Assembly: GCF_030384885.1 (NCBI RefSeq)
Contig: NZ_CP128613.1
DNA: 64,000 nt
Direction: 5' to 3' (one strand)
Origin: Escherichia coli
Lineage (GTDB): Bacteria > Pseudomonadota > Gammaproteobacteria > Enterobacterales > Enterobacteriaceae
How positions within the stretch are numbered: the stretch's first letter is position 1; each line of letters begins with the position of its first letter. Position numbers and translations under genes: made by a program. Below, piece by piece: positions 4,196 to 22,499 of this stretch. The notes beneath the pieces are model-generated. The model had not been told where the DNA came from. It made no database searches and was given only the letters and a program-made list of their open reading frames with translations.

Positions 4196-5219
4196 CGTTT
4201 TCCCTTATAATTACAGACGCGCACTAGCTGTGCTGGGTTAGCAATAATCCAACATTTTAATCCTGATTATGTTTATAAAAGCGAACGTTTGCTTAATAAC
4301 TAACGTAAGTGGACCAGTTCTTCTGAGTGAACTTAAATGGAGTAGCGATAGTTACTTATAATAACTTTGCCATACAAACGCCATGCTCTTGCATGCTATG
4401 TACCTTTATATATTTATCAATGTGATACGAATCTAATAATAACCCTCATCATTAATGCAACTAATCTTATCTATATATCATGTGATATGTTCTGTAACAA
4501 GTAAAATCAACATAAAAAATTCAGCAAAATTTAATATTCGTTCAACTAGCCGTCTCACATATGACATTATTAGTCAACTGCATTTGCCACAAAATGGCTA
4601 TTTCATGGAACGCAGTAATTTCTTAGCGTCTATTATCATGCTAATTCTTAGGTCTCTAGCGATTATTCCTGCCTGGTTCGTCAGCTTACGCCATGAGATT
4701 GCTACATTCCTTTTTATCATGGAGATATGGGGGAAAGCAGGCGACGCTTTTTCATCTACATTCATTGGTAAATATGGCTTTGGTCACTACGCCTTAAACC
4801 TTCTTCAATCACAGCTATTCGCCGGGCGATACGGCAAACAAACTAAGTGAAGCATCATCCTGAAAACACCAATGCGTACTGAACATCAACAAGCCTCTCC
4901 TGATCGACTTCAGAAGTGACCAGTTACAAGCCACAAACCTGGAAACATATTTCATGATGAGAATTATGCTCAGCCTGATGGCGGGTAAACACTTATTTTC
5001 ACCACGCTCACTGAGTTAGCTTGCAAAGCTTTCCTTGTTTAGATTCTAAATAAATTATCTATAAAACAGATAGTTAAAAGAAAATCTTTAGTTTTTGAAG
5101 ACCACCGCAAGTGTTCGTCTGGCTTCACATGGCATCTTCCTCTTAGAAAAAGATCGACATATTTTGTGACACGAATTGCAAATCTGGTTTTGTTGTATGG
5201 ATTGCGTGATTTTTGATCT

Positions 5220-5242
5220 GGTATAACAGGTATAAAGGTGCA
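5220..5242. promoter_or_regulatory. NanR operator-like tandem GGTATA repeats in the fimB-nanC intergenic region
   Basis: GGTATA-ACA-GGTATA-AA-GGTGCA; NanR is known to bind tandem GGTATA hexamers. Confidence 0.6.
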
Positions 5243-5658
5243 CCACGATAGTCAATGAGACTGGGCATCTCGAAATCTATGGCAAACATCACTGCAGTTC
5301 TTTCACATCGGGTGATGAAAATGCACTTCAGTCTGAAAGGAATATGAAAATGAGATCAACAGACACTCTATTTTATGACTCTGGGTAAAATGGATTGAGT
5401 AAGTGATATAGCTTACGAACATTCAAATCAATCAAACATCAGAAGAGATTTTATACTCAGGTATTTAATCTGGATCTCTGTTTATTTAAATAATGTGGAA
5501 AGAGATTTTTCACAGGAGACATTATACAAAAAATATAAAATACAGCTATCGGTTGCCAAAGACACTATAAGCCTGGCAAAAAATATTACACAACATAAAT
5601 GCTAATTGTTTATGCGGGCTTTGTATTGCTTTCTGTATCCTACAAATGAGTGAAATTT

Positions 5659-6375
5659 ATGAAAAAGGCTAAAATACTTTCTGGCGTATTATTACTGTGC
5701 TTTTCGTCACCATTAATTTCTCAAGCTGCGACACTGGACGTACGTGGTGGATATCGTAGTGGAAGCCACGCCTATGAGACTCGACTCAAAGTCAGTGAGG
5801 GATGGCAAAATGGATGGTGGGCAAGCATGGAAAGTAATACCTGGAATACCATTCATGATAATAAAAAGGAAAATGCCGCACTCAATGATGTTCAGGTTGA
5901 AGTTAATTACGCGATTAAACTTGATGATCAATGGACGGTGCGCCCGGGAATGTTAACGCATTTTAGCAGTAACGGCACACGCTACGGACCCTACGTAAAA
6001 TTGTCCTGGGACGCGACAAAAGATCTTAATTTTGGCATTCGCTATCGTTACGACTGGAAAGCTTACCGACAACAAGACTTATCCGGTGATATGTCTCGTG
6101 ATAACGTTCATCGTTGGGATGGATATGTCACTTACCATATTAATAGTGATTTCACCTTCGCATGGCAAACGACGCTATACAGCAAACAAAACGATTATCG
6201 CTATGCAAACCATAAGAAATGGGCGACGGAAAATGCATTTGTTCTACAATACCATATGACGCCTGATATTACGCCATACATAGAATATGACTACCTTGAC
6301 CGTCAGGGTGTTTATAACGGCAGAGATAATTTATCAGAAAACAGTTATCGCATTGGTGTGTCATTTAAACTGTAG
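5659..6375 (+). CDS. nanC: N-acetylneuraminic acid outer-membrane channel NanC (KdgM family porin)
   Basis: 238 aa from ATG 5659 (MKKAKILSGVLLL..., signal peptide); ORF-track GTG start at 5650 trimmed. Confidence 0.9.
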   Translation: MKKAKILSGVLLLCFSSPLISQAATLDVRGGYRSGSHAYETRLKVSEGWQNGWWASMESNTWNTIHDNKKENAALNDVQVEVNYAIKLDDQWTVRPGMLTHFSSNGTRYGPYVKLSWDATKDLNFGIRYRYDWKAYRQQDLSGDMSRDNVHRWDGYVTYHINSDFTFAWQTTLYSKQNDYRYANHKKWATENAFVLQYHMTPDITPYIEYDYLDRQGVYNGRDNLSENSYRIGVSFKL

Positions 6376-6394
6376 TAGACAGGAGACAGTCACA

Positions 6395-7501
6395 ATGAAT
6401 AAAACAATAACGGCGCTTGCTATCATGATGGCTTCATTTGCCGCAAATGCGTCTGTATTACCGCAAACTCCGGTGCCATTTAAAAGTGGTACCGGAGCAA
6501 TTGATAACGACACTGTCTACATTGGTTTAGGTAGCGCAGGTACGGCATGGTACAAGCTGGATACACAGGCCAAAGATAAAAAATGGATAGCGTTAGCTGC
6601 ATTCCCTGGTGGGGCGAGAGATCAAGCAACCTCTGCATTTATTGATGGCAATCTGTACGTATTTGGCGGCATTGGCAAAAACAGCGAAGGCTTGACTCAG
6701 GTATTTAATGACGTATACAAATACAACCCCAAAACCAATAGCTGGGTTAAATTGATGTCACACGCGCCGATGGGTATGGCGGGTCATGTGACTTTTGTAC
6801 ACAACGGCAAGGCTTATGTTACTGGCGGTGTTAACCAAAATATCTTTAATGGCTATTTTGAAGATCTCAACAAAGCTGGAAAAGATTCAACCGCTATAGA
6901 GAAAATCAACGCCCACTATTTTGACAAAAAAGCAGAAGATTATTTCTTCAATAAGTTTCTGTTGTCTTTTGATCCCTCTACACAGCAATGGAGTTACGCT
7001 GGCGAATCTCCCTGGTACGGAACGGCTGGTGCGGCGGTTGTGAATAAAGGTGATAAAACCTGGCTTATTAATGGCGAAGCCAAACCAGGATTGCGAACGG
7101 ATGCCGTATTTGAACTTGATTTCACCGGTAATAATTTAAAATGGAATAAACTTGCTCCCGTCTCATCACCAGATGGCGTCGCTGGCGGTTTTGCGGGGAT
7201 AAGCAATGACTCACTTATATTTGCCGGGGGGGCCGGATTCAAGGGGTCGCGGGAAAATTATCAGAACGGTAAGAACTATGCGCATGAAGGCCTGAAAAAA
7301 TCATATAGCGCTGATATTCATCTTTGGCATAACGGGAAATGGGATAAATCTGGCGAATTATCGCAAGGTCGGGCCTACGGAGTATCATTGCCCTGGAATA
7401 ATAGTTTATTAATTATTGGCGGTGAAACTACAGGCGGCAAAGCGGTGACGGATTCAGTTTTGATCTCTGTGAAGGATAATAAAGTCACAGTACAAAACTA
7501 A
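6395..7501 (+). CDS. nanM: N-acetylneuraminate mutarotase NanM (Kelch-repeat beta-propeller)
   Basis: 368 aa from MNKTITALAIMMASFAANA (signal peptide), RBS AGGAGA at 6381-6386; ORF-track upstream extension trimmed. Confidence 0.9.
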   Translation: MNKTITALAIMMASFAANASVLPQTPVPFKSGTGAIDNDTVYIGLGSAGTAWYKLDTQAKDKKWIALAAFPGGARDQATSAFIDGNLYVFGGIGKNSEGLTQVFNDVYKYNPKTNSWVKLMSHAPMGMAGHVTFVHNGKAYVTGGVNQNIFNGYFEDLNKAGKDSTAIEKINAHYFDKKAEDYFFNKFLLSFDPSTQQWSYAGESPWYGTAGAAVVNKGDKTWLINGEAKPGLRTDAVFELDFTGNNLKWNKLAPVSSPDGVAGGFAGISNDSLIFAGGAGFKGSRENYQNGKNYAHEGLKKSYSADIHLWHNGKWDKSGELSQGRAYGVSLPWNNSLLIIGGETTGGKAVTDSVLISVKDNKVTVQN

Positions 7502-7565
7502 TGCTTCAGGGCCCCAGTAAAGGGGCCCTGCTATCAATTTATCATTTCAATTACGCGAAAATTAT

Positions 7566-8546
7566 ATGAACGCAATAATATCGCCCGATTATTACTATGT
7601 TCTTACCGTTGCTGGTCAGTCTAATGCCATGGCGTATGGCGAAGGACTGCCATTACCGGACAGGGAAGATGCGCCTCATCCCAGAATTAAACAATTAGCG
7701 AGATTTGCGCATACGCATCCCGGAGGCCCGTCATGTCACTTTAACGACATTATTCCACTGACTCACTGCCCACACGATGTTCAGGATATGCAGGGTTATC
7801 ACCATCCTCTGGCAACGAATCATCAAACACAGTACGGCACCGTTGGCCAGGCACTGCATATTGCACGGAAATTACTGCCCTTTATTCCTGATAATGCAGG
7901 GGTTCTCATCGTTCCGTGTTGCCGTGGCGGATCGGCTTTTACCGCGGGCAGCGAAGGGACATATTCAGAACGGCACGGAGCCAGCCATGATGCTTGTCGT
8001 TGGGGAACGGATACTCCGCTATACCAGGATTTAGTCAGCAGAACGCGAGCCGCACTGGCAAAAAATCCGCAGAACAAATTCCTCGGCGTATGCTGGATGC
8101 AAGGCGAATTTGACTTAATGACCAGTGACTACGCGTCACACCCTCAACACTTTAATCATATGGTTGAAGCCTTTCGTAGGGATCTAAAACAATACCATTC
8201 TCAGCTTAATAATATTACTGGCGCGCCGTGGTTTTGCGGCGATACCACCTGGTACTGGAAAGAAAGTTTCCCTCATGCGTATGAAGCTATTTATGGCAAT
8301 TATCAAAATAATATTTTAGCCAATATTATTTTCATCGACTTCCAGCAACAAGGTGAAAGAGGGCTGACGAACGCGCCTGATGAAGATCCGGACGATTTAA
8401 GCACGGGATATTTCGGTTCAGCGTACCGGTCACCGGAGAACTGGACGACGGCACTGCGAAGCAGTCATTTCAGCGCGGCAGCCCGTCGGGGGATTATTTC
8501 TGACAGGTTTGTAGAAGCAATTTTGCAGTTTTGGAGCGAAAGGTGA
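7566..8546 (+). CDS. nanS: 9-O-acetyl-N-acetylneuraminate esterase NanS
   Basis: 326 aa, MNAIISPDYYYVLTVAGQSNAMAYGEG... (SGNH-like esterase motif GQSN). Confidence 0.9.
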   Translation: MNAIISPDYYYVLTVAGQSNAMAYGEGLPLPDREDAPHPRIKQLARFAHTHPGGPSCHFNDIIPLTHCPHDVQDMQGYHHPLATNHQTQYGTVGQALHIARKLLPFIPDNAGVLIVPCCRGGSAFTAGSEGTYSERHGASHDACRWGTDTPLYQDLVSRTRAALAKNPQNKFLGVCWMQGEFDLMTSDYASHPQHFNHMVEAFRRDLKQYHSQLNNITGAPWFCGDTTWYWKESFPHAYEAIYGNYQNNILANIIFIDFQQQGERGLTNAPDEDPDDLSTGYFGSAYRSPENWTTALRSSHFSAAARRGIISDRFVEAILQFWSER

Positions 8547-8639
8547 GCGGGGAGTTTATTCATGGGGGATGTCCTTGTCCGTTCCCAAAACAGGCAACAA
8601 AAAACAAATGAGATCAAGGTAATATCTCTTCACTTGCAG

Positions 8640-8900
8640 GCTCGAACAGCAGGCAATTGCCAATATAATAATCTGGCACAAGGGTGAAAAACGCGCACCG
8701 CATAAACCGTTGTTATTGCTTACAGATTAGCCGGATGCCTTAATAGACATCCGCGCCTTTTCGATTATGGCTCGGAAATCTACGAACCTCTGCACAGTTT
8801 ACTGGAACGTTTTGGACCACAGCGTTCACAGTACCGACCTGATATGCCGTTCTGGCGATTATAAGGCGACGGATTCTGGCAAATAGACGATGATAATATG
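8640..8900 (+). pseudogene. Degraded fragment paralogous to the N-terminal domain of the HNH-nuclease gene at 19855-20730
   Basis: Frame-shifted translation gives NIIIWHKGEKRAPHKPLLLL and LFDYGSEIYEPLHSLLERFGPQRSQYRPDMPFWRL, matching NITIWRKGEQRAPHKPLLLL...RLFNYGSEIYEPLLDLLERYGPQRRDQRPDMPFWRL of the 20227-20775 ORF; stops and frameshifts present. Confidence 0.6.
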
Positions 8901-9128
8901 CTTAATGATGTTCAAAGAAATTAGGCCATCATTATATTATTGCTTGCATTTTCTTTCATTCCCAAAAGCACCCGCCATTAATCCCAGGCGCATTATGCAA
9001 AGGAAAATGATTAGGTAAACAATAAGATTTATAATCAGGAAAGGCGACTCGCAATAAAACGCAAAGTCGCCTTAACATTGGTAAAATATGCCCTTTACTA
9101 CTCCTGTATCATGAACGGCTCATCACAT

Positions 9129-12100
9129 TTAAAGCTGACGTTGATCCAGACTGCTATATATTGCCTTTATTTCATTTTTTACGCTTTCGCCACGGTACAC
9201 CAAAGACGTATCGTATCGTTGATACTTATCTTCCCGTGCAGCACTGAACCAGTTAAAAGATCCGACACACAGCAGTTCTTCATCCTCAATTACAATTTTG
9301 CTGTGGACACGATTAACCAATTTCGTAGCGATACCCATCTTATTGAGCTTTTCAACAGCATCATTCAGCAGATGTTTTTTCTCCTGACGCTTATCATCAT
9401 CGACATGCGCTATATTGCAGTTTTTATCCGTCACCACAGTAATATCAATGCCCCGGGAACGGGCCAAAGCCATTGATGCCAGAAATCCCGTTTGCTCCAT
9501 TTTTTGCCAGGATAACCAAGGGGAAATAATCGTTATTTTCTTTTGAGCTCCGGCAAGAGTCTTGTTCAAAAATTCATCATGCGGCTCCACGCCATGCAGC
9601 GTTGAAATTTGTGTATGTGCGGAAATTAAATCCTGTCGTTTATGAAACTCAAATTGCAACGCATTATTATCTGAAGAAAAGAGATATTTTGCCAATAACC
9701 CTCGCGGCGAAAATGCGGGCTGCATCTCGATAAGGTCCATATCGCCAAATACCAGAAAACTATCTTTAGCGCGTGAGACAGCAACATTGAGGATACTGCT
9801 GTTGCTATCAAGAAACCTGCCATCTTCATGTTTTGAGTAGACTGGAGAAAAGAGAACAATCGCCCTTTCCGCCCCCTGCAAGGAGTGCACAGTCCCCACT
9901 GTCAGTGAACCCTCCTCGTCTTTGCCATTAATTTCCAGCTTACGCAATGACGTTTTGATAGCATTAACCTGCGCCGAAAATGGCGTCACAACACCAACAA
10001 CTTTGTACAGTGGTTCCCCGTAATGGCGCTCTATATCATCCTTATGTGCCACCAGCCATGCTGCTATTGTTTCAGCTTCAAGAGGGTTATAACGGCTCCC
10101 CCCATTTGGCTTCATGCCTCTACCATCAATATGTAAATATCCCATTGCGGGGAAAATCGTCCCTTTTTCTATCCCTCTTTTAGGCTGCAACTTACCGTGA
10201 TAGCAAAGTGAGTTACAGTAGCCGATGATGTTATTGAAACAGCGACGATGCTCATACAGATACATTCCGCGCTCGAACTTGGGATCATACTGGTAGTGAG
10301 AGTTAAACTGGGCTACCTGCATTACGCTGCCAGATGCTGCACTTTTTCCAGACCCACACACGTGAGTATATGTATTTATTAACTCTTCCTGAGTGCCACC
10401 AGAAATAATATTCTCCTCAAGCATATTGCCCATATCAGTGACGGGTAGACAATTCCAGATTGGAGCTATTTGCTCCGTATCGCCAATCACCAGCGCTTTC
10501 TTCGCCAATGCAAAGGAAGCTGCAGCAACCTCCGGGAGTACCTGCCCGGCTTCATCGACAATCAGTAAATCAGCAAAGTTATATAAATAATTATTATCCG
10601 ATGTTCTATCGCCACCAAAAGATTTTCTTCTGTTCATATGGTAAGGCAACATGTAGCAGGTCATCACCACACAAGGAGTAAGTTTCATTCTTCTTAGCCA
10701 ACGAGCCTCGGCGATAGTTATCCCGGTAATTCCTTTTTCTTTTTGCAAATTATCTATAGCTGCCATATCAATCAGCCAACGCCCCTCCCAATAATGGGTC
10801 GCTACCAAGAACGCTGGAAAACGAATCTGAGTATCGGCAAGTTCATCCGCTCCTGAAAGATTCAATTCATCGTCACCTCTGTAACCCAAAGCATAAGTCA
10901 ACTCACGCCATTGTTTTGCAGCTTCTATTTCGCGTCGGGCTATATCCTTCGCATAGTTGATGTTCTGTTGGCACTCATCCTGCTCCTTTTGCGTTTTAGC
11001 AATCAAACTATCAATAAATTCATCAATATCTTCGGGATAATTTCCCTGGAACGATGTCATTCTTGTGCCAAACGTAGAGTCCAGGAAGAGGTTAATCTGG
11101 TAATGGCGTTTAGTACGAACAGCAGGAAGCCATGACAAAACCGCATACACTAGCGACTCATCAGCACGGTATTGCTGCCACTGCTTTTTACCTCTGGTTA
11201 AAAGTGAAATTTCATTGCCAATATTGAGAAGACGTGTATTTTCGTCCTGAAGATACTGGTCGAGATTCTCACTGATGGCTCGCTGTTCATGGCGGATATC
11301 ATTAAGCCTGCGCCATGCGGGTTCGATTTGCTGAAGTTGAATAAACTGTGAAGTTAAACGTTCATGCAAAAGCGTCACTACATGCTCTGGTGAATTGCAC
11401 TCTCCAGCTCCAAACGCCACCTCCGCTTTTTCAAGGTAAAATGCCCGGGCTTTTTCCAGATATTCCTGGGATTCAACGTGGTTAAAAAAATCTTCAGTCT
11501 GGTATTTCTTCGCAGCCTCAACCTGACGGCTTTTAGACGGAAAATAAGCGCCATAGCTTATTACCTCCGGCAACCAACGACCAGCCATTACGCCAAAACC
11601 AGTAGAGAAATCTTTTCCAAAGGCTTCAATAATATTGGTGACGGCCTGATTGTTAGTTGATGTGGCAATAATTACAGGAGGTTCAGCTTGATTAAGTGCG
11701 GCTCTAGTCCATTCGGTGGCGATAATAGAAAGCACCAGCGTAGTTTTACCCGTTCCCGGAGGACCGTTAACAGCGAGCATATCCCCCTGCTGTTGAGTCA
11801 GATAATGGCTCAGGGCATCGCGCTGCGCCACTGCCAGCGGAAACTTATCGCCGGAATGCCCCAGACGTTCGCAGAACATAGCATTCTTAGCGAGAAGTGG
11901 CTCTAGTGGAACCATTTCATTTGAGGCAAAACGCGTTAATAGAGGAACCTTAACCTGGCTCATCAGCAGATGGTCATACAAAGGCAGGATATGAACACTG
12001 GCCCCTACATGCTGGCTAGCTTTAACAATATAACCGTATCCAGCCCGTTCGTATGGCTCAGATGTAGCGACCCAATTTCCAGCGACGTTTCTTAAAAGGT

Positions 12101-12644
12101 TATCTGACTGTTGAAGATAATTTTGCCAATGCTGACGATACCTGGCATGGCGTTCCGCTTTCTCTTCGTCAGTTTCTTCGTAATGTTCTGGTTGACCTTC
12201 ATTAATGGTGGCTGTGTTATGCGTAGTTTTGTATTTGTCATATTGCACCAACTCACCAATAGAAAAATGACCGGAAGGGAGAGGTTCAAGCAGATCGCGG
12301 GGAATAGTGGCTGAAGCGGCAGGAAACAAAAAACCTTCCCTATTAAGAAGAGCGGAGGTAACCAGTGGCGTAATAATTGCGGGTGCACCTGCCGTTTGCT
12401 CTTTGCCATGCTTTACAATGCGGTTCCATACCTGGGGCCGTAACACGACTTCAACGTTTTTTACAGACTCCCCTTCACCGTCAAAAAATGCCCGAATAGT
12501 TTCGTCATCCAACTGCCCTGCGCTGATATTTATCCACCGAATGAATGATTCTGTATCTTTACGTGAAAACGTTCCTTTGCCAGATTCGGCGTCAGCTAAG
12601 GAGTTGCGCCAGTATGAAGTGAATCCCAATGTATTGCTGTCCAT
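9129..12644 (-). CDS. Large helicase-nuclease fusion: N-terminal unknown region, SF1 Upf1/DNA2-like helicase, C-terminal PLD (HKD) nuclease; type II Mokosh-like defence candidate
   Basis: 1171-aa ORF, ATG at 12644. Walker [13 protein letters not shown], Walker [10 protein letters not shown], helicase motif [18 protein letters not shown]-terminal HKD motif [19 protein letters not shown]. Confidence 0.85.
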
Positions 12645-12837
12645 TTCTCATTCCGTGACATAATAGAAATCATTGATTTCATTGATGTAAATATTACTTA
12701 TGATTAAACATTGTCCACGATGCGAGCGCGATCGCAATAAATATTGTGCCTGGAGGATGGATTAGATTTTCTGAAAGAGCTAAATCCTTAATAGATAAAC
12801 GCGTACATACTTGGTTCGGTATTCTTAAGGGATTTAA

Positions 12838-12961
12838 TATGGATTGAACCAGGTTGACGTTAGTTGAAAAAAACAGTGGAAAAGATTTGTGTGGCGCGGA
12901 TTTCAGGCATAAAAAAAGACCTCAGTTGAGGTCTATTTACATACTTTTGGTGCGAAGGCCG
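12838..12961. repeat. Direct repeat copy 1 (island-distal att-like site): leuX 3' flank plus 14 nt of tRNA 3' end
   Basis: 12894-12953 is a 60-bp perfect copy of 22361-22420; about 55 bp upstream shows roughly 85 percent similarity; ends in TGGTGCGAAGGCCG, matching the leuX 3' end with a 1-nt deletion. Confidence 0.8.
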
Positions 12962-13077
12962 CACCGCGATTCCAGACTCAACAATATGAAATCAATGGAC
13001 TTTTAAAAATGCGAAGTTACTTTGTATACTCACATGTATACTCAGTACCATTTCTTAAGAAATCAATTCATTCAATA

Positions 13078-13875
13078 CTACTCATCATCGTCTTCCACTG
13101 GTTCCAGCACATCAAGCGCAACTCTCACCATAGCGATAGAACCAATACGAATGAAAGCATCTTCTCCATCTTCGTCGGTTATCATAAAACGAACCGTGGT
13201 TTCAGGCTCGCAATCCAGCGCGTCAAAAAAAGCATTCAACTGGCCGATATCATCCGTCTCTTCGTTTTGCGGCGCATCTGGCTCAACACTCAGTGGAATC
13301 ACTGGTCCGCCGTTTACCAGCGTGATATGGACATTAAAATAATCGTCTTCGTAGGCATCATCCTCTTCGTCAACGATTGGCCGCAGACCATCAGAAAGGA
13401 ACTGATGAAATACCACTTCACGCATATTTAACGCATAACGATACTCGGAAGAATCAAAAACGAAGAAGCGTTCTATGTTTGGAGTGTTTTTTTCCTGAAA
13501 ATAATAATAAAACCTCCGCTTATCCACTGCTGAAATGGGCAACAGCAAATAGTCCCGCTGCCCCTGTAGCCAAAGTTTTACGGTCCAGAGACCGCTATCC
13601 ATTTCAATGCCGCTTGTGGCTATAGCCTCAAGATCTTCATCAGTTTTACGACGCTTTTTGCGGAAGTCATTTATCAACCGATCGCTTTCCGGGAACACTA
13701 CGTTTAGAGGCTTATCCAGAGCATTACATATTGCCTGTGCGAGCCCCAGCTTTGCAGCAACCTTCCCGGTTTCGATACGCTGAATTTGTTGCTGGCTGGT
13801 GCCGACCATAAACGCCAGCTCGCGCTGGGTGATAGATAGCTGGGTACGGAGCTGTTTGATGTTGTTCTGTAACAT
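13078..13875 (-). CDS. XRE-family HTH domain fused to an acidic C-terminal domain of unknown function
   Basis: N-terminal helix-turn-helix LSITQRELAFMVGTSQQQIQRIETGK; about 200-aa C-terminal region ending VEDDDE; preferred start ATG 13875 with GAAGGA RBS (alternative 13884). Confidence 0.7.
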   Translation of the reverse strand: MLQNNIKQLRTQLSITQRELAFMVGTSQQQIQRIETGKVAAKLGLAQAICNALDKPLNVVFPESDRLINDFRKKRRKTDEDLEAIATSGIEMDSGLWTVKLWLQGQRDYLLLPISAVDKRRFYYYFQEKNTPNIERFFVFDSSEYRYALNMREVVFHQFLSDGLRPIVDEEDDAYEDDYFNVHITLVNGGPVIPLSVEPDAPQNEETDDIGQLNAFFDALDCEPETTVRFMITDEDGEDAFIRIGSIAMVRVALDVLEPVEDDDE

Positions 13876-13989
13876 GGCATCCATCCTTCAGAAGGAGTAG
13901 AAAGTGCCATTAAAACACAAAATTGAGTATAAACACATAATCGTGTTTATACTCACTAATCAACACCCTTGAACGAAAAGAAAATCTCT

Positions 13990-14265
13990 TCATCGTTCTT
14001 CTCTAGTATGCCAGAGATCGACTATATAAATGTCATTGTCACGAAGTTCGTAGTGAACCTCATGGTCATCAAATAACACTTTTCGGACTTCCCGAGGTTC
14101 ATACCGAGTCTGCTGTACGCCAATTGCCGGATGTGCTGTAAGACCAGCACAACCAGTAATCAGGCGATCCAAAACGTCATCGGCGTGCTGGCGGCTATAC
14201 TGAAGGGCGAAACGGTAGATACGCTCAAGGTCATCCTGAGCTTTAAGCGTCCAGTAAATTTCCAT
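13990..14265 (-). CDS. ParE/RelE-superfamily toxin
   Basis: 91 aa, C-terminal IYIVDLWHTREER typical of ParE; starts 3 nt after the upstream RHH gene stop. Confidence 0.75.
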   Translation of the reverse strand: MEIYWTLKAQDDLERIYRFALQYSRQHADDVLDRLITGCAGLTAHPAIGVQQTRYEPREVRKVLFDDHEVHYELRDNDIYIVDLWHTREER

Positions 14266-14268
14266 TAA

Positions 14269-14517
14269 TCAGGATTTCTTTAAGCGATTAGCAAAATCCA
14301 CCATGTCCGAGTGGCTCACCACGCGACCGGCATCCACATCCGCAAGACCGGCCTGGATGCTCTGGTGACGCCGTTCTCTTTCGGCCAGCATACTGGTCAA
14401 CGCTTCCTTAATAATCCAGCTCTTAGAACGATCTAACTCAATTGCCAGATTCTCAACAGCAGCGGCCAATTCAATAGGTATCTGTGCGCTGATGGTTTGT
14501 TTAGTAAGCGAACCCAT
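14269..14517 (-). CDS. Ribbon-helix-helix (ParD/CopG-like) antitoxin
   Basis: Small ORF directly upstream of the ParE-like gene; RHH-like N-terminus; start at 14517 (GAGGT RBS) preferred over the ORF-track start 14541. Confidence 0.65.
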   Translation of the reverse strand: MGSLTKQTISAQIPIELAAAVENLAIELDRSKSWIIKEALTSMLAERERRHQSIQAGLADVDAGRVVSHSDMVDFANRLKKS

Positions 14518-14592
14518 AGGGATTACCTCGTTTAATAACATTTAATAACTCCTATTAATATTAGCATAAAGGTGCTTATAAAAACATCAATC

Positions 14593-15426
14593 TCATTTCG
14601 CAGGTAACATCCCCGGAAAGTGCTTCGCCACGATATCATTCATCTTCTCCACCAGATCCAGGCGTTTGAAAGTGATATGCCCACTGCCCTTCTGAAAGTA
14701 GCGAATAGTGAACAACTCATCTTCGAAAATCTGCTGATGCGGATTATCGCGCACAAAATCCATAAACCGGATGGAGACATCATGCCGGTTATCAGGAATG
14801 GTCTTTCCATCCAGCAGGTAGAACATCCGTTCCAGATCGGCAAGCTGATCTCTCCGCCAGCCCCAGTTCAGGCTGTAGCCCCATCTGTCATGCTTCACCA
14901 GATTGTTAACGATAATCTTCTTACCGAAATAACAGGGATTATTGGTTTTGTAATCCCAGCTCAATCCCTTAAATACATTGATAATCCCACGTTCGAAAAC
15001 GTCCTGCTTATTGTGGTGGAGTTGTTCAAAGGTACTCAGGATGTTGGCTTCGCTAATCGCCGGGAGATCGCCCTCCTCCAGGTTCTTTGCCCACTGACTG
15101 CGGGCTTCGGCATCCATCAAGGTCAACATCCCGGACTTCAGCATGAGATCGCGCCAGATGCTGCGATCGATATTGCGGGTGATCACCGGCATGGCTTTAT
15201 CCACCGGCTGCACCAGCCAGCAGTCGAAGGAATGGCCCTGACGCATCGCCCAATGCTCCGCCACATCACCACCGATGCTGGAGGTTAGCCGTGAGATATC
15301 ATCAAGCTTATGGATCAGGATTTCTATCAGACTCAACGCAGCATCACGACCCGTCACGATACGCTCAACACTGGTCGAGCAAATTAGCTCGTTATGATCG
15401 GTTAAGACTTCAGCTTCTGTTTGCAT
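14593..15426 (-). CDS. Conserved hypothetical protein of the type commonly encoded downstream of cbtA-family toxin genes (possibly DUF4942-like)
   Basis: 277 aa from ATG 15426 (ORF-track TTG start at 15450); no motif I can assign; position after CbtA-like toxin. Confidence 0.6.
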   Translation of the reverse strand: MQTEAEVLTDHNELICSTSVERIVTGRDAALSLIEILIHKLDDISRLTSSIGGDVAEHWAMRQGHSFDCWLVQPVDKAMPVITRNIDRSIWRDLMLKSGMLTLMDAEARSQWAKNLEEGDLPAISEANILSTFEQLHHNKQDVFERGIINVFKGLSWDYKTNNPCYFGKKIIVNNLVKHDRWGYSLNWGWRRDQLADLERMFYLLDGKTIPDNRHDVSIRFMDFVRDNPHQQIFEDELFTIRYFQKGSGHITFKRLDLVEKMNDIVAKHFPGMLPAK

Positions 15427-15540
15427 AATCTTTTGTCCGTATAAAAGCAAATGCGCCAGCCATGAACAGCAGGCGCATTATGCAGGGAGTTATGAGGGAA
15501 GTAATTTTGGCGATGTAAATCGGGAAGGAGACTCGCAGAT

Positions 15541-15882
15541 TCACCGTGCCGTGGTGTTATGGCAGCGACGCAGCAGACCTGTAGCCTGCCGCGCCCGCAA
15601 AATATCGACCGCACGAAGATAAGGCGTCTGTTCCCGCCAGCTAAATCCTTTCCTGTCGATACGGATCAATTCGTACTTCTCCACCAGAAAATTGATGGCA
15701 TCAACCAGAGTGATCCCGGCGTCTATGTGTTCCTGAATCACCTTTTCATTGTTGAATGGTGTGTCATTAAGGTTCAGTCCGTAGTGCTGCTCCAGCAGGC
15801 GGGCCAGTAATGTTTGCCAGACCACGACGGGCGACAGATATGACGTCGTCGCCCGCAGCGTCGTTGCAGGAATAATTTTCAT
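15541..15882 (-). CDS. CbtA/YeeV/YkfI-family toxin
   Basis: 113 aa, [60 protein letters not shown] resembles YeeV/YkfI/YpjF. Confidence 0.8.
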
Positions 15883-15912
15883 AACGATGTTCCGTATTAA
15901 GGAGGTTAAAAC

Positions 15913-16248
15913 TCAGCGTTGAGTGGGATAAATAGCGATATAGACGTAACCACAGGAACCCAGCGTATCGGCTTCGCAGGTTAGTCCTTTGGCGTATAGC
16001 GTGACGGTACGTTGTTGGCAGGGGGAGAGTTCACCGTCAGCCAGTTTCAGCTCCAGTTGTTTCATCAACACCGGAAAAGCCTGGTCGATATGCAGCAGAT
16101 CCGGGGAGCTGAATTTCCCGGTAATTGCGGCCCGATCAGCCAGGTAATGCAGGTTATGTCTTTCCTGTACCAGTCGAGCAGTGAAGCGTGGTGTTACGGT
16201 ACAGGGAAGCCCCCATTCTTGTTGCATGACCTTGTCCTTTTGCAGCAT
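15913..16248 (-). CDS. CbeA/YeeU/YafW-family antitoxin
   Basis: 111 aa, WGLPCTVTPRFTARLVQERHNLHYLADRAAI...TVTLYAKGLTCEADTLGSCGYVYIAIYP resembles YeeU/YfjZ; directly upstream of the toxin. Confidence 0.8.
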   Translation of the reverse strand: MLQKDKVMQQEWGLPCTVTPRFTARLVQERHNLHYLADRAAITGKFSSPDLLHIDQAFPVLMKQLELKLADGELSPCQQRTVTLYAKGLTCEADTLGSCGYVYIAIYPTQR

Positions 16249-16360
16249 TACAGCCAGCCCCGTTCGGCAAAAGAGAGGACATCCCCCGCCCCAATAATGA
16301 AATGATCCAGCACCCTCACTTTCACCAAATCCAGTGTCTTAACAATATTCGTTGTAATAA

Positions 16361-16909
16361 GTCTGTCGGCCCGACTGGGTTCCCTATGAGGTTGTCACGC
16401 ACACCACAGAATTCCTGCGCGAAGGCATCAAACGGGAGAAATTAAGCGACGCACAAATCCGCGAACTGGAAGAACAAGGCATAGATCCCAATACGCTGGA
16501 GTTTGATGGTAAGGCGCTGGATGAGGCGATCTACAACAAAGACACCAACCGCTATATCCTGCGTAACCTGATGGAAAATGGCCTGAAAGATCGGGACGGC
16601 CAGTTGCCTGGTAAAACCATCATTTTCGCCCGTAACCACAAACACGCGCTGCTGTTGAATGAATTGTTCGACGATATGTACCCGGAAGGGATTGATGCTG
16701 GCGTTGATTTTAAAGATCGCACGCAGGCGGCGTTTGTTGTACCAAAAGAAGATATTGCTGCGCAGAAATACGACCTCTCTATTAATCGTTATAAAGAAGT
16801 GGTGTATCAGGCTGAGGAGTATGAAGATCCGAAAGTGATACTGAAGCGGTTAAAAGATCTGGAAAATGAGATTCTGGCGGATCTGAATGAGCTGGAGGGA
16901 ATGCTGTGA
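16361..16909 (+). pseudogene. 5'-truncated remnant of the R-M gene that precedes hsdS (hsdM-like C-terminus)
   Basis: In-frame coding sequence from 16361 with no start until ATG 16571; C-terminal KYDLSINRYKE motif; stop overlaps hsdS start (GTGA at 16906-16909). Confidence 0.5.
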
Positions 16910-18090
16910 GTTGGCCGTTAGGAAAAGTTTCCGATATTGCTGCTGTTATATCCGGTTTTGCTTTTAAAAGCGAATGGTTTGGTACAGGAGACGCAAAGGT
17001 TATCCGAATTGGCGATCTTAAGAACGGAAAAATCGATCTTAGTGATGCAATGATCTTTGATCATAAAACTAATAAAGTTCGCGAACAATTTAGAATCAAA
17101 AGCGGCGATATTTTAATGGCTCTTTCTGGCGCAACTGTTGGGAAGATCGCAGTTGCTGATGCTGAAGCTGAAGGTGCATATCTTAATCAACGAGTAGCAG
17201 TGATTCGAGGGCGAAATCATGAAAATGCAGAATATTTAAAATACGTATTTTCAGGACACCCTCTCCAAAAACTACTCCTAAATGCAGGTGGTGCGGCACA
17301 GCCAAATCTTAGCTCTAAAGACTTGGCAGAGATGGAAATACCTATTCCCCCTCTTACCGAACAAAAAAGAATCTCAACCATACTTGATAAAGTAAATGGC
17401 ATACGTCAAAAGCGCGAGCAAGCCATAAAGCTGGCTGATAATTTTTTGCATACCATTTTTCATGAGATGTTTGGCGATCCTGTTAAAAACCCGAAGGGAT
17501 GGGATGTCGCCTCTTTATTAGAATATGGTTCATTCAAAAATGGAATGAATTTTTCAAAAGGTGAATTGGGATCTGCTTTGAAGTGCCTAGGAGTTGGTGA
17601 TTTCAAATCACTGGCAACGATTACCTGTATGGACAATATCGGTGAAATTGAATTAAATACTCTTCCTTCGGATGATTATCTTTTGAAAGATGGTGATATT
17701 GTCTTTGTCCGTTCTAATGGTAATAAAGCCTTGGTCGGAAGATGTCTTACTATTTATCCAAACAAAGAGAAAGTCACATTTAGTGGGTTTTGCATTCGAT
17801 ACAGAATAAAAAATCCTGCAATCACGCCAGAATATCTCAACTTCCTTTTCCGTACACCGTCAATGAAACAGCAAATGTTGAGCGGGGGCCAAGGGGCTAA
17901 TATTCAGAATATTAGCCAAGGTACCTTATCTGCACTCAGGATACCTGTACCTCCATTGGATAAACAACTTGCTTTTGCCAGATTGGTTGATTTCCATGCA
18001 TCTATTGTGAAAAAACAATATGATAAAATGGCTGAATCCGAAAAACTCTTCAATGCCTTGACTGGTGATTTTTTCACATTTAATGAGTGA
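16906..18090 (+). CDS. hsdS: Type I restriction-modification specificity subunit HsdS
   Basis: 394 aa, two target-recognition-like halves with conserved spacer motifs (NQRVAVIRG, LPPLTEQKRI, IPVPPLDKQ); GTG start with RBS GGAGGGA. Confidence 0.85.
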   Translation: MSWPLGKVSDIAAVISGFAFKSEWFGTGDAKVIRIGDLKNGKIDLSDAMIFDHKTNKVREQFRIKSGDILMALSGATVGKIAVADAEAEGAYLNQRVAVIRGRNHENAEYLKYVFSGHPLQKLLLNAGGAAQPNLSSKDLAEMEIPIPPLTEQKRISTILDKVNGIRQKREQAIKLADNFLHTIFHEMFGDPVKNPKGWDVASLLEYGSFKNGMNFSKGELGSALKCLGVGDFKSLATITCMDNIGEIELNTLPSDDYLLKDGDIVFVRSNGNKALVGRCLTIYPNKEKVTFSGFCIRYRIKNPAITPEYLNFLFRTPSMKQQMLSGGQGANIQNISQGTLSALRIPVPPLDKQLAFARLVDFHASIVKKQYDKMAESEKLFNALTGDFFTFNE

Positions 18091-18145
18091 TGGTTTATAG
18101 GATAACTCATTCATTACAAAATTTATTAAATACATAGAGGGGCAA

Positions 18146-18691
18146 ATGGGTACATATATCTCAGATAAAACAGAAACATGTTTTGATGAATATTCTTTAA
18201 TCGAAAAAGTCGGGGATGGCTATAAGATTAGTGTGTACTCATTTAAGCTTCATACAGGAAATCCTTACCAGCCACATATATCAGAAAGTTATAGTGGTGA
18301 TATTTTTATTAGCTATTTGTACTATGGAAATGATTCTTATTACGAGCGCAGACGTCAGGAATACAGAAAATATTTATCATTAAAAGAAATCCACCTTGCT
18401 ATTCTAAAGATGTTTCCAGATGAGCGAAGAATTGCGATAGGTATAAAAAAAGAAAATTACAGTACCGTAAAAATAACTTATGCGGCAGCGGATGAAGTAT
18501 ATCTTCTTGATATTAAAAATAAAGAGACATTATTGTTAGATAATATATTATGTCTATATGATGTTATTTATAAGCATGAAAGCAACATTAATAAATTGGA
18601 AGGCGAGTTAGCAAGTAGTAAAAAAGAACTCCAAAGTATGAAGATAGATATAAAAGAAAAATGTAAATCTATTCTTGATATTGTTGATTAG
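18146..18691 (+). CDS. Hypothetical protein, AT-rich, predicted C-terminal coiled coil
   Basis: 181-aa ORF, ATG 18146 with RBS AGAGGGG; markedly lower GC than neighbours; no recognisable motif. Confidence 0.55.
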   Translation: MGTYISDKTETCFDEYSLIEKVGDGYKISVYSFKLHTGNPYQPHISESYSGDIFISYLYYGNDSYYERRRQEYRKYLSLKEIHLAILKMFPDERRIAIGIKKENYSTVKITYAAADEVYLLDIKNKETLLLDNILCLYDVIYKHESNINKLEGELASSKKELQSMKIDIKEKCKSILDIVD

Positions 18692-19854: not shown

Positions 19855-20730
19855 TCAATGCTCTCCTCTGAACACCTCTTTTCTGTGCCATTCCACAAAC
19901 CGCTCGCCAGGATAATTTTCTTTAACCGGTGGCAACGCAATCGCCTTTCCTGCAAAATCCCAGAACAGCCGCTGTACCACCCCACCGCCATTTACCGCGC
20001 CGGAAACCACCACACGCATATTTTCATCCAAACCAATCGAACCACGATCAAACGCTTTATGATGGATGGCGCACAATGCCAGGCCATTAGGTACTTCACA
20101 AGGGCCATGGTGCTGCTTCCATCTGATATGAGCGGCTTCCAGAGCAATCGGCGCATTGTCGTGGCGCATGTTAAAGCCGCAGATAGCGCACTGATAATTG
20201 TAAGCACGTAGCACCATCTGACGGAACTACGGATCGCGTTGACGGAGAGAGGTGCGAATATCAAAACCCATCTCGTCAGCTATCTCTTCCTGAATACTGG
20301 CCGGGAAATGCGCCTCCAGGAGCTGCTGCGCCAGCGTATCAATTAACCTGTGATTTTTTGCCACCAAAGCAAAATTATCGGCATCAAATCCACCAGCAAC
20401 ATTATATTCAATGAGTTCACGTCGGGGCGGCTGGCGGCTACCACTGGTTGAGCACAGTTCCGCGTTATGTAGTTCCCAGAAGCCATCGCCCTTCAGACGC
20501 CAGAACGGCATGTCCGGGCGCTGGTCACGGCGCTGCGGTCCATAACGTTCCAGTAGATCCAACAGGGGCTCGTAGATTTCAGAACCATAGTTAAACAGGC
20601 GACCATGACCCTGCCGATAGTGTGAGAGAACGTACAGCAGCAATAATGGCTTATGTGGCGCACGTTGTTCGCCTTTGCGCCAGATGGTGATATTTGATAT
20701 CGCTTGTTTTAGGGTTTTGTCAGAGGTCAT
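19855..20730 (-). pseudogene. HNH endonuclease-family gene with unknown N-terminal domain, interrupted by one in-frame amber (TAG) codon
   Basis: ORFs 20227-20775 and 19855-20217 are in the same frame, separated only by TAG at 20229-20227 plus 3 sense codons; C-terminal part has HNH motifs CAICGF...EAAHIRWKQHHGP...NGLALCAIHHKAFD. Confidence 0.7.
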
Positions 20731-20945: not shown

Positions 20946-22214
20946 TCACTCGCCATTCCCCCGGTTGATCTTCGCATAGTCAAACGGCGTAATCGCTCTT
21001 TCCCGATTGGCATCCAGAAAATCAGCCCACCACTGTAACATCAGCTTGCGCTCATCCAGATGTTCCGCTTTATGGATATACGCCGCCCTCACCGAATTGC
21101 GTTCCATATGGCTCATCTGGCGCTCCACCGCATCCTTCGACCATAGCCCTGACTCAATTAACGAACTACAGGCCATTGTACGGAAGCCGTGGCCGCAAAC
21201 TTCAACCTTAGTGTCATAACCCATCACCCGTAGCGCACTGTTTACCGTGTTCTCGCTCATGGGCTTACGCGGATCGTGATCGCCAATAAAAATCAGCTCA
21301 TGTTCGCCACAGAACTGTTTTATCTGCTTCAGGATCGCCAGCGCCTGCTTTGAAAGCGGCACCAGATGAGGTGTGCGCATCTTTGAACCTCGCTGAGAAT
21401 GTTTCACGCCGGGAATCGGTTCTCGCTCAGGCGGGATGGTCCACATTGATGTTTCAAAATCGATCTCTGACCAGCGAGCAAAACGCAGCTCACTGGATCG
21501 AATAAAAATAAGCAGAGTAAGTTCGGTTGCCCAGCGGGTTAGCGGCCTGCCGGTATAGCCGTCTATTTTCTCAAGCAACTCAGGGATGCGCTTTAACTCC
21601 AGCGCCGGACGATGCTGTCGATTACTGGAAGCAACCGCCCCTGCCATCTCTTGCGCCGGATTGTAATCAATTAACCCGCTTTGCACTGCATAACGCATGA
21701 TGGCCGTGGTGCGCTGTTGAAGGCGGGAAGCCACCTCAAGACGTCCGGATTTCTCCACGGCTTTAATAGGAATTAACAGATCGCGGGTGCCCAGTTCAGC
21801 AATATTGTGGGAACCAATTGCCGGGAAGATATTGTCCTCCAGGCTCTTTTTTACACGATTAGCATGATCTTCCGACCATTTTTGGTTGGTTACGAGCCAC
21901 TCTTTGGCAACCTTCTCGAAAGTAATAATCTCTTTCGCCTGCTCTTCTTTCACAGCACGCTTATGCTCACGAGGATCGATACCAGCAGCTACCAGCTTTC
22001 TGGCCTCTTCCCTTTTCTTCCTGGCATCCGCCAGCGAAACATCCGGGTAAACGCCGAACGCCATCAAATGTTGTTTACCACCAAAACGGAAACGAAATCG
22101 CCAATACTTTGAACCGCCAGGTTTTACAAGTAAGGACATGCCGTCGCCGTCAACAAGTGAATACTCTTTCTCCTCAGGTTTCGCAGAGCGAACTTTAGTA
22201 TCCGTTAGGGCCAT
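20946..22214 (-). CDS. intB: P4-type tyrosine integrase (IntB-like)
   Basis: 422 aa from MALTDTKVRSAKPEEKEY with RBS GGAAGGAAG; C-terminal tyrosine-recombinase catalytic region; adjacent to tRNA-Leu. Confidence 0.9.
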   Translation of the reverse strand: MALTDTKVRSAKPEEKEYSLVDGDGMSLLVKPGGSKYWRFRFRFGGKQHLMAFGVYPDVSLADARKKREEARKLVAAGIDPREHKRAVKEEQAKEIITFEKVAKEWLVTNQKWSEDHANRVKKSLEDNIFPAIGSHNIAELGTRDLLIPIKAVEKSGRLEVASRLQQRTTAIMRYAVQSGLIDYNPAQEMAGAVASSNRQHRPALELKRIPELLEKIDGYTGRPLTRWATELTLLIFIRSSELRFARWSEIDFETSMWTIPPEREPIPGVKHSQRGSKMRTPHLVPLSKQALAILKQIKQFCGEHELIFIGDHDPRKPMSENTVNSALRVMGYDTKVEVCGHGFRTMACSSLIESGLWSKDAVERQMSHMERNSVRAAYIHKAEHLDERKLMLQWWADFLDANRERAITPFDYAKINRGNGE

Positions 22215-22304
22215 AATGGTCTTCCTTCCATTGGTATCTCGTGAGTATACAAGCAATATCGAATCGGCAAATATACTCATTAGTATACTCACAAGCCTGT
22301 TGAT

Positions 22305-22420
22305 GTGGGTTGAGTCAGGTTGACTTCAGTTGAGGGGAAAAGCTGGAAAAGCCTTGTGTAGCGCGGATTTCAGGCATAAAAAAAGACCTCAGTTGAGGTC
22401 TATTTACATACTTTTGGTGC
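22305..22420. repeat. Direct repeat copy 2 (integrase-proximal), covering the leuX terminator hairpin and tRNA 3' end
   Basis: 22361-22420 identical to 12894-12953; contains GACCTCAGTTGAGGTC hairpin plus T-run on the minus strand (leuX terminator). Confidence 0.8.
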
Positions 22421-22499
22421 CGAAGGCCGGACTCGAACCGGCACGTATTTCTACGGTTGATTTTGAATCAACTGCGTCTACCGATTTCGCCACTTCGGC
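22415..22499 (-). tRNA. leuX: tRNA-Leu (CAA anticodon), leuX
   Basis: Reverse complement reads GCCGAAGTGGCGAAATCGGTAGACGCAGTTGATTCAAAATCAACCGTAGAAATACGTGCCGGTTCGAGTCCGGCCTTCGGCACCA, 85 nt with encoded CCA. Confidence 0.95.

What the first reader, a model, noticed from the sequence alone, without database searches (positions are those of the whole stretch)
8640..8900. Degraded second copy of the HNH-gene N-terminal domain next to nanS
Frame-shifted translation of 8640-8900 reproduces two blocks of the N-terminal domain of the island HNH gene (IWxKGExRAPHKPLLLL and FxYGSEIYEPL...RxGPQR...RPDMPFWRL) at roughly 75-80 percent DNA identity. It lies in inverted orientation about 11.5 kb from the full-length copy. 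It marks an older decayed insertion at the nanS boundary and shows that this gene family has entered the locus more than once.
Basis: seen in the sequence. Interest (0 to 1): 0.4.

Follow-up and report, generated by a model that had tools for sequence, protein, structure and literature searches.

The report
Dead remnant of sulfur-sensing restriction gene
The stretch next to nanS is an old, broken leftover of a restriction-enzyme gene that recognises sulfur-modified (phosphorothioate) DNA; the same leftover sits in K-12 and about a third of E. coli genomes and is already flagged as a pseudogene in RefSeq, so it is ordinary.

Summary
The similarity is real. Window 8646-8892 (+) aligns to the N-terminal part of the island gene at 19855-20730 (-) with a score about 35 sd above shuffles. 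The fragment is not a decayed copy of the island gene. It is 92% identical to codons 7-89 of a different 290-aa gene that is intact at this same nanS-adjacent site in roughly a third of complete E. coli genomes. That gene is a 76%-identical paralogue of the island gene. Both belong to the SBD-HNH phosphorothioate-dependent restriction endonucleases (NCBIfam NF045808; ScoMcrA SBD, PDB 5ZMO). The island gene is the orthologue of WP_000199891, very probably EcoWI. The fragment has lost its start codon and upstream palindrome (73-bp deletion). It also carries a 1-bp frameshift and a TAA stop, and lacks codons 90-290 including the HNH domain (667-bp deletion). The identical scars occur in K-12 (unannotated there), B, Nissle and 1738 of 5426 genomes. 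The "full-length" island copy is also dead, through a private AAG-to-TAG change at codon 168. Two separate entries of the family are supported: the island copy travels with the leuX integrase across Enterobacterales. This is ordinary and already annotated.

The parts
8646..8892 (+). Pseudogene remnant: codons 7-89 of a 290-aa SBD-HNH phosphorothioate-dependent restriction endonuclease (the nanS-adjacent paralogue). It covers the first part of the sulfur-binding domain, including the APHKP and DMPFW cavity motifs.
   Evidence: 91.9% identity over 248 columns to L002:4379-4626 of the intact gene in strain 18KM2445. RefSeq pseudogene C6996_RS27070 'frameshifted; incomplete; missing C-terminus'. 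The parent protein matches NF045808 at 438 bits and the ScoMcrA SBD 5ZMO at E=6e-8.
8599..8645 (+). Retained upstream DNA of the dead gene, ending at the 5' deletion junction (8645|8646). The missing 73 bp, lost between two ACAGCAG repeats, held the conserved palindrome TTGCGAGCATGATCGCAA, the ATG and codons 1-6.
   Evidence: Alignment with intact-allele strains and K-12; upstream alignment of eight homologues.
8720..8721 (+). Site of a 1-bp deletion (codon 32) that shifts the reading frame between the two conserved blocks.
   Evidence: The same deletion is present in K-12.
8862..8864 (+). TAA nonsense codon (Q80*; CAA in the intact allele).
   Evidence: The same codon is present in K-12.
8890..8895 (+). 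3' deletion junction. About 667 bp (L002 4627-5293) are missing, covering codons 90-290 (rest of the SBD, the linker and the whole HNH domain) plus about 60 bp after the stop. The junction is flanked by ..AATG/..CATG microhomology.
8548..8598 (-). Remnant of a second, divergently transcribed restriction gene ('HNH216', a head-domain + HNH protein of 216 aa). Only its upstream DNA, ATG (8563-8561) and 5 codons remain after a 641-bp deletion. They are fused in frame to the small ORF known in K-12 as ythB (window 8465-8563).
   Evidence: Window 8548-8645 matches L007 3850-3947 (86/98). HNH216 is intact in WP2-W18-CRE-03 and B7A. K-12 ythB annotation. ScoMcrA head-domain match at E=1e-4.
9129..12644 (-). 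yjhR, intact here (1171 aa); neighbour of the remnant; Mokosh type II (MkoC)-like helicase-nuclease.
   Evidence: RefSeq 'helicase YjhR'; PADLOC MkoC at 1464 bits over the full length. K-12 keeps only the part matching window up to 10356.
12834..12964 (.). Distal att-like direct repeat. It holds about 18 nt of the leuX 3' end plus about 115 bp of the sequence that follows leuX. It separates the current island from the yjhR/remnant segment.
   Evidence: 86-87% identity to 22300-22432.
19855..20730 (-). Island paralogue: orthologue of WP_000199891 (probably EcoWI), 288/291 aa identical, inactivated by AAG->TAG at codon 168 (window 20227-20229).
   Evidence: ('internal stop'). NF045808 at 442.6 bits. 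WP_000199891 was tested in PMC6224610.
20758..20775 (-). Conserved palindrome TTGCGAGCATCATCGCAA upstream of the island copy. The equivalent element was deleted from the nanS-adjacent remnant.
   Evidence: Near-invariant (one mismatch, in Hafnia) across eight homologues of three lineages.
20946..22214 (-). Tyrosine integrase of the leuX island, immediately next to the island SBD-HNH gene.
   Evidence: RefSeq annotation. The same integrase + SBD-HNH pair occurs in other genera.
22300..22499 (-). tRNA-Leu(CAA) leuX (22415-22499) and the proximal copy of the att-like repeat (22300-22432).

Best explanation
Window 8646-8892 is a non-functional deletion remnant (codons 7-89 of 290) of a resident E. 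coli gene for an SBD-HNH restriction endonuclease. In this enzyme type the N-terminal sulfur-binding domain docks the Rp sulfur of phosphorothioate-modified foreign DNA in a hydrophobic pocket, and the C-terminal HNH domain cuts nearby. Other E. coli carry the gene intact between nanS and the variable leuX-side defence cargo, paired divergently with a second HNH gene. In the lineage of this window, which also includes K-12, B and Nissle, four kinds of lesion destroyed it. A 73-bp deletion removed the start and the putative operator. A 1-bp frameshift and a nonsense codon followed. A 667-bp deletion removed the rest, including the nuclease. A 641-bp deletion also removed the partner HNH gene. 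The similarity to the island gene 11.6 kb away is paralogy: that gene is a 76%-identical relative, very probably EcoWI, brought in separately with the leuX integrase island. It is dead here too, through an amber codon. Shown here: homology, lesions, distribution and separate lineages. Inferred: the ancestral biochemical activity of the nanS-adjacent paralogue (from EcoWI/ScoMcrA) and the absence of any residual function.
For: Fragment versus intact nanS-adjacent gene: 228/248 (91.9%). Fragment versus island copy: 159/230 (69%). The intact 873-bp gene lies at the same site in 18KM2445 and CE10; in an O157-like strain it lies beside a nanM fragment, with nanS lost. Lesions were mapped base by base and are shared with K-12. 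No ORF remains in the SBD frames. RefSeq annotates it as a frameshifted, incomplete pseudogene. 1738/5426 genomes carry both scar junctions, and about 1,700-1,900 carry the full-length type. The 19 substitutions fall 8/3/8 on codon positions, with radical replacements derived on the fragment lineage when polarised by EcoWI. Family assignment rests on NF045808 at 438 bits, Pfam HNH_2, and ScoMcrA SBD 5ZMO at E=6e-8, with H26/K27 and M74/P75 aligned to H116/R117 and Y164/P165. The island copy is 99% identical to WP_000199891, whose SBD binds Rp GpsAAC DNA and which restricts PT-modified plasmids (PMC6224610). Its computed mass of 33.41 kDa matches the 33.4 kDa reported for EcoWI. The paralogues are not nearest relatives: a Salmonella copy is 91% identical to EcoWI, and a Klebsiella copy is 79% identical to the nanS-adjacent type. 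The EcoWI type is 94-98% identical next to the same integrase in five other genera. E. coli B strain C2566 carries the same scar allele, and without a cloned ecoWIR gene it does not restrict dnd+ plasmids (PMC7461809).
Against: The activity of the nanS-adjacent paralogue itself has not been tested; its function is inferred from a 76%-identical relative. Divergence between the scar allele and the intact allele (8-10%) is high for E. coli. Part of it could come from an already divergent parental allele rather than post-inactivation drift, since neighbouring yjhR is also 6.6% diverged. Allele frequencies other than the 1738 figure are extrapolated from 40 evenly spaced rows. Transcription of the remnant was not examined.
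Confidence: 0.92

Rival explanations
1. The fragment is a local duplicate of the island HNH gene (or the product of an earlier insertion of the same island) that then decayed in place.
For: Both copies lie in the nanS-leuX variable region. The distal att-like repeat at 12834-12964 carries integrase-side arm sequence, which hints at tandem island accretion.
Against: The fragment is 92% identical to a different, intact gene at the same site in other strains and only 66-69% identical to the island gene. The two protein lineages are 76% identical and are separated by Salmonella and Klebsiella homologues. The island lineage always sits beside the integrase, whereas the other sits beside nanS in Escherichia only. 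No att copy lies between nanS and the fragment.
Confidence: 0.03
2. The remnant is kept because it still does something, for example as a regulatory RNA, a promoter or terminator for neighbours, or a small peptide.
For: The scar allele is 95-100% conserved in 1738 genomes. Seven promoter-like matches fall in 8400-9250 against 1.7 expected. The adjacent HNH216 scar did create the translated K-12 small ORF ythB.
Against: That conservation equals ordinary within-species identity. No Rfam family matches. No ORF lies in the SBD frames. No terminator-like site was found. The substitution pattern is neutral. Many genomes lack this stretch or carry other deletion alleles.
Confidence: 0.04
3. The similarity is due to chance or low complexity.
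For: None.
Against: Score 92 against 19.5 +/- 2.1 for shuffles. Independent annotation by PGAP. Protein-level motif match to a solved SBD structure.
Confidence: 0

Closest known systems
WP_000199891 (E. coli W / LY180), very probably EcoWI: SBD-HNH phosphorothioate-dependent restriction endonuclease (PMC6224610, PMC7461809)
   Same: Same family (NF045808) and same two-domain layout in the parent gene. The fragment keeps the codons for the cavity motifs APHKP and DMPFW. The window's island copy is its orthologue (288/291 aa).
   Different: The fragment's parent is a 76%-identical paralogue at a fixed nanS-adjacent site, not the integrase-linked island gene. The fragment lacks a start codon, a reading frame and the HNH domain. 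The window's orthologue has K168*. The link WP_000199891 = EcoWI rests on strain naming and matching predicted mass (33.4 kDa), not on an accession in the EcoWI paper.
ScoMcrA of Streptomyces coelicolor (PDB 5ZMM/5ZMN/5ZMO)
   Same: The N-terminal domain of the parent gene aligns with the ScoMcrA SBD (E=6e-8), including H116/R117 and Y164/P165 equivalents. The neighbouring HNH216 gene aligns with the ScoMcrA head domain (E=1e-4).
   Different: There is no SRA domain. Head and SBD are on two separate divergent genes, each with its own HNH domain. Y164 is replaced by Met.
RefSeq pseudogene C6996_RS27070 (and equivalents in thousands of PGAP-annotated E. coli genomes)
   Same: It is the same feature: 'phosphorothioated DNA-binding restriction endonuclease; frameshifted; incomplete; missing C-terminus'.
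   Different: PGAP places it at window 8656-8861 only. It does not describe the deletion junctions, the lost partner gene or the relation to the island copy. The curated K-12 MG1655 record does not annotate it at all.
K-12 KpLE2-side relics yjhR, yjhZ and yjhY
   Same: Decayed defence or mobile-element genes in the same nanS-leuX variable region.
   Different: None of them corresponds to this fragment. yjhR is the neighbouring Mokosh-II-like helicase gene, which is intact in this window.

Membership tests
SBD-HNH phosphorothioate-dependent restriction endonucleases (NCBIfam NF045808; EcoWI / ScoMcrA-SBD lineage) | N-terminal sulfur-binding domain homologous to the ScoMcrA SBD, with the H-(K/R) and (Y/M)-P cavity residues | tested here: met
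   The parent gene matches 5ZMO at E=6e-8 over residues 5-142. The fragment's conceptual translation keeps APHKP and DMPFW, but in two different frames and only for residues 7-89 of the roughly 140-170-residue domain.
SBD-HNH phosphorothioate-dependent restriction endonucleases (NCBIfam NF045808; EcoWI / ScoMcrA-SBD lineage) | C-terminal HNH nuclease domain (Pfam PF13391) | tested here: not met
   It is present at residues 182-236 of the intact parent and in the island copy. In the fragment it has been removed by the 667-bp deletion.
SBD-HNH phosphorothioate-dependent restriction endonucleases (NCBIfam NF045808; EcoWI / ScoMcrA-SBD lineage) | Uninterrupted reading frame with a start codon | tested here: not met
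   In the fragment the start codon is deleted, there is a 1-bp frameshift at codon 32 and TAA at codon 80. The island copy has TAG at codon 168. Both are therefore pseudogenes derived from the family, not working members.
SBD-HNH phosphorothioate-dependent restriction endonucleases (NCBIfam NF045808; EcoWI / ScoMcrA-SBD lineage) | Restriction of phosphorothioate-modified DNA | not testable with these tools
   Indirect evidence only. E. coli B C2566 has the same scar allele and accepts dnd+ plasmids unless ecoWIR is supplied (PMC7461809).
tRNA-leuX integrase island (KpLE2-type) | Tyrosine integrase next to tRNA-Leu(CAA), with a direct repeat of the tRNA 3' end at the far boundary | tested here: met
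   tRNA at 22415-22499, integrase at 20946-22214, repeat at 12834-12964. This applies to the island that carries the EcoWI orthologue.
tRNA-leuX integrase island (KpLE2-type) | The fragment lies inside the att-bounded element | tested here: not met
   The fragment and yjhR lie beyond the distal repeat, on the nanS side. No further att copy lies between nanS and the fragment.
Annotated K-12 pseudogenes near yjhR | Corresponds to an annotated K-12 MG1655 feature | tested here: not met
   NC_000913.3 lists yjhY, yjhZ, yjhR and ythB but nothing at about 4,536,268-4,536,514, where the identical scar allele lies.

The most novel reading that the evidence does not exclude
The repeated, independent destruction of phosphorothioate-sensing restriction genes in this region may be driven by selection rather than neutral decay. 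At least three different deletion alleles of the nanS-adjacent gene together cover more than half of E. coli, and this strain adds a private amber codon in the EcoWI orthologue. Possible drivers are self-toxicity or star activity, or incompatibility with incoming dnd/ssp phosphorothioate-modification systems. The PT-modifying strain B7A carries a truncated allele. In addition, the divergent head-HNH / SBD-HNH pair could be a two-gene 'split ScoMcrA' system.
Probability: 0.2. Interest if true: 0.35.

Novelty: already known. Interest (0 to 1): 0.1.

Why it matters
It matters little in itself. The feature is a dead gene that automated annotation already labels correctly, from an enzyme family that has been characterised biochemically and structurally. 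It has three modest uses. First, it fills a small annotation gap in K-12 MG1655 (about 4,536,268-4,536,514), and it explains that the K-12 small protein YthB starts on the leftover start codon of a deleted HNH gene. Second, it shows that this strain has lost both of its phosphorothioate-sensing restriction genes. Third, it documents the nanS edge of the leuX hotspot as a place where restriction genes are repeatedly gained and lost.

Tried and rejected
An Rfam scan of 7500-13500 at E<=1 gave only sub-threshold chance hits. The promoter/terminator scan gave consensus matches only and no terminator. An ORF listing down to 20 aa found nothing in the SBD frames. A search for a third att or tRNA 3'-end copy between nanS and the fragment found none. 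A tblastn search of plasmids found full-length relatives, but the three examined (H109-H111) are non-mobilizable records with chromosome-like content, for example a 550-kb linear Klebsiella 'plasmid' and an E. coli 'plasmid' carrying yjgR + integrase. I used them only as sequences, not as evidence of plasmid carriage. I checked whether the dnd cluster of strain B7A sits next to its truncated allele; it does not lie within 20 kb. A genome-wide test of dnd presence against SBD-HNH inactivation was not feasible because no dnd query sequence was available. The idea that the fragment descends from the island copy was tested and rejected.

Full report
**Where the window comes from.** The window is E. 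coli. It is 99.99-100% identical to strain 2013C-4282 (NZ_CP027579.1) over 5001-16383 and 16678-26000. The local order is as follows:
- nanC, nanM, and nanS (7566-8546, +)
- the finding (8646-8892, +)
- yjhR (9129-12644, -)
- an att-like repeat (12834-12964)
- island genes: toxin-antitoxin pairs, an orphan hsdS, a 5'-nucleotidase, the 'island HNH gene' (19855-20730, -) and a tyrosine integrase (20946-22214, -)
- tRNA-Leu(CAA) leuX (22415-22499, -)

- A local alignment pairs 8662-8885 with the N-terminal part of the island gene at 159/230 identical columns (69%). The score is 92, against 19.5 +/- 2.1 for shuffles and 21.1 +/- 2.2 for random window segments.
- Inverted orientation and a spacing of about 11.6 kb are correct.

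**What the fragment is.** It is far closer to another gene than to the island gene.
- In strain 18KM2445 an intact 873-bp gene (290 aa) sits between nanS and yjhR. RefSeq calls it 'phosphorothioated DNA-binding restriction endonuclease'.
- Window 8646-8892 matches positions 21-268 of that gene (codons 7-89) at 228/248 (91.9%).

The lesions relative to the intact gene are:
- A 73-bp deletion between two ACAGCAG repeats. It removed a conserved palindrome, the ATG and codons 1-6.
- A 1-bp deletion at codon 32.
- CAA to TAA at codon 80 (8862-8864).
- A deletion of about 667 bp that removed codons 90-290 and about 60 bp after the stop.

No ORF survives in the relevant frames. RefSeq already annotates the spot as a frameshifted, incomplete pseudogene of this family.

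**Family and mechanism of the parent gene.**
- The intact protein and the island protein both match NCBIfam NF045808 over their full length (438 and 443 bits; cut-off 180). Both have a C-terminal Pfam HNH_2 domain.
- Residues 5-142 align with the sulfur-binding domain (SBD) of ScoMcrA (PDB 5ZMO) at E=6e-8.
- In ScoMcrA the phosphorothioate sulfur sits in a hydrophobic cavity made by H116, R117, Y164, P165 and A168 (PMC6224610). In the alignment these correspond to H26, K27, M74, P75 and R78.
- The inferred ancestral mechanism is therefore: the SBD docks on Rp-phosphorothioate DNA and the HNH domain cuts nearby, restricting PT-modified incoming DNA. This is shown for relatives, not for this paralogue.
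- The fragment cannot do this. It has no start codon, no continuous frame and no nuclease.
- Indirect experimental support comes from E. coli B C2566. It carries the same scar allele and accepts dnd+ plasmids unless ecoWIR is supplied (PMC7461809).

**The island copy.**
- It is 288/291 aa identical to WP_000199891 of E. coli W. Liu et al. synthesised that protein from E. coli LY180. They showed that its SBD binds Rp-PT DNA and that the gene restricts transfer of PT-modified plasmids (PMC6224610).
- Its computed mass of 33.41 kDa equals the 33.4 kDa given for EcoWI, so it is very probably EcoWI.
- In the window, codon 168 is TAG instead of AAG (20227-20229). RefSeq marks this as 'internal stop'.
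- Only this strain matches the allele at >=99%. The 'full-length copy' is therefore a recent, private pseudogene.
- The EcoWI type is rare in E. coli: 238 of 5426 complete genomes.

**How common and how old the fragment is.**
- With 8600-8940 as query, which spans both junctions, 1738 of 5426 genomes cover at least 80% at 95-100% identity. They include K-12 derivatives, B strains and Nissle 1917.
- K-12 MG1655 has the same junctions, frameshift and TAA at about 4,536,268-4,536,514. NC_000913.3 annotates nothing there.
- With the intact gene as query, 1914 genomes cover at least 80%. This count includes some that have only the EcoWI type.
- Other decay states exist: a truncation keeping only bases 1-144 (for example B7A and WP2-W18-CRE-03) and an allele keeping only 449-873.
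- The 19 substitutions between fragment and intact allele fall 8/3/8 on codon positions 1/2/3 and include V34R, Y38C and G41R. With EcoWI as outgroup, most replacements are derived on the fragment lineage. This is the pattern of drift after inactivation.

**One entry or two.**
- The two E. coli lineages are 76% identical in protein.
- A Salmonella homologue is 91% identical to EcoWI. A Klebsiella homologue is 79% identical to the nanS-adjacent type and 73% to EcoWI.
- A degenerate-pattern scan of one genome per species found the EcoWI type at 94-98% aa identity in Mixta (two species), Citrobacter, Serratia (two), Hafnia, Rosenbergiella and Escherichia sp. E1V33. In each case remains of the same integrase lay alongside.
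- The nanS-adjacent type was found only in Escherichia: E. coli; Escherichia sp. E1V33, which has both types intact; and two metagenome-bin contigs at 99% identity labelled Streptococcus and Lachnospiraceae, likely stray E. coli DNA.
- The island copy therefore arrived with a widely transferred integrase module, and the other is an older Escherichia resident.
- The current island is bounded by leuX and the repeat at 12834-12964. That repeat holds about 18 nt of the tRNA 3' end plus about 115 bp of the sequence that follows leuX.
- The fragment and yjhR lie outside this island, and no further att copy lies next to nanS.
'Second copy of the island gene' and 'insertion at the nanS boundary' are not shown.

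**Surroundings.**
- In strains such as WP2-W18-CRE-03 and B7A, a 216-aa HNH endonuclease gene is transcribed divergently from the SBD-HNH gene.
- Its residues 24-87 match the head domain of ScoMcrA at E=1e-4.
- In the window and in K-12, a 641-bp deletion leaves only its ATG and five codons. These are fused to the small ORF that K-12 annotates as ythB.
- Beyond the SBD-HNH gene the cargo differs between strains: yjhR (PADLOC MkoC, 1464 bits), McrBC plus a type I system, a P4-like element, or fosA7.5.

**Verdict.** The object is an ordinary, old pseudogene remnant that is already annotated, from a well-characterised restriction-enzyme family.

Noticed in passing
window 8465-8598 (minus strand): The K-12 small protein gene ythB appears to be a deletion product. 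Its ATG and first five codons (MNKLP) are those of a 216-aa HNH endonuclease gene that is intact in other strains (L007:3215-3865). A 641-bp deletion fused them in frame to a short downstream ORF antisense to the nanS 3' end.
   Followed up: partly
L007:3215-3865 and L028:19214-19864 (absent from the window): The 216-aa HNH gene has an N-terminal region matching the ScoMcrA head domain (5ZMM residues 29-93, E=1e-4). It lies divergent to the SBD-HNH gene, so the pair resembles ScoMcrA split into two genes, each with its own HNH domain.
   Followed up: partly
window 9129-12644 (minus strand): yjhR is intact here (1171 aa) and matches the PADLOC MkoC model (Mokosh type II anti-phage protein) over its full length at 1464 bits. 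The K-12 yjhR pseudogene is a truncated version of it.
   Followed up: partly
window 20758-20775; L002:4309-4326: An 18-bp palindrome, TTGCGAGCATnATCGCAA, is near-invariant (one mismatch, in Hafnia) upstream of the SBD-HNH genes of all three lineages. It lies between a conserved TTGA(A) and the start codon, while the flanking non-coding DNA varies. It is possibly an operator.
   Followed up: partly
window 20227-20229: The EcoWI orthologue carries a private AAG-to-TAG change at codon 168, so both phosphorothioate-sensing restriction genes of this genome are inactive.
   Followed up: yes
window about 16378-16684: Relative to the RefSeq record of strain 2013C-4282, the window lacks two segments of 8.9 kb and 2.9 kb. 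The junctions have 6-7 bp overlaps. The losses remove part of radC, several island genes, most of the type I hsdR-like helicase gene and most of hsdM, leaving hsdS orphaned.
   Followed up: partly
window 7566-8546: PGAP annotates nanS in this and many other strains as a partial pseudogene of 345 bp. The ORF is nevertheless full length (326 aa) and 316/326 identical to K-12 NanS, so this is probably an annotation artefact.
   Followed up: partly
window 12834-12964 versus 22300-22432: The distal island boundary repeats not only about 18 nt of the leuX 3' end but also about 115 bp of the sequence that follows leuX, including a terminator-like hairpin. This suggests tandem accretion of related islands, with yjhR lying behind an integrase-less second att arm.
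   Followed up: partly
L014-L026 (other genera): The integrase + EcoWI-type gene pair is 94-98% identical in protein across Mixta, Citrobacter, Serratia, Hafnia and Rosenbergiella. That is far above genome-wide identity between these genera and indicates recent horizontal spread of the module.
   Followed up: partly
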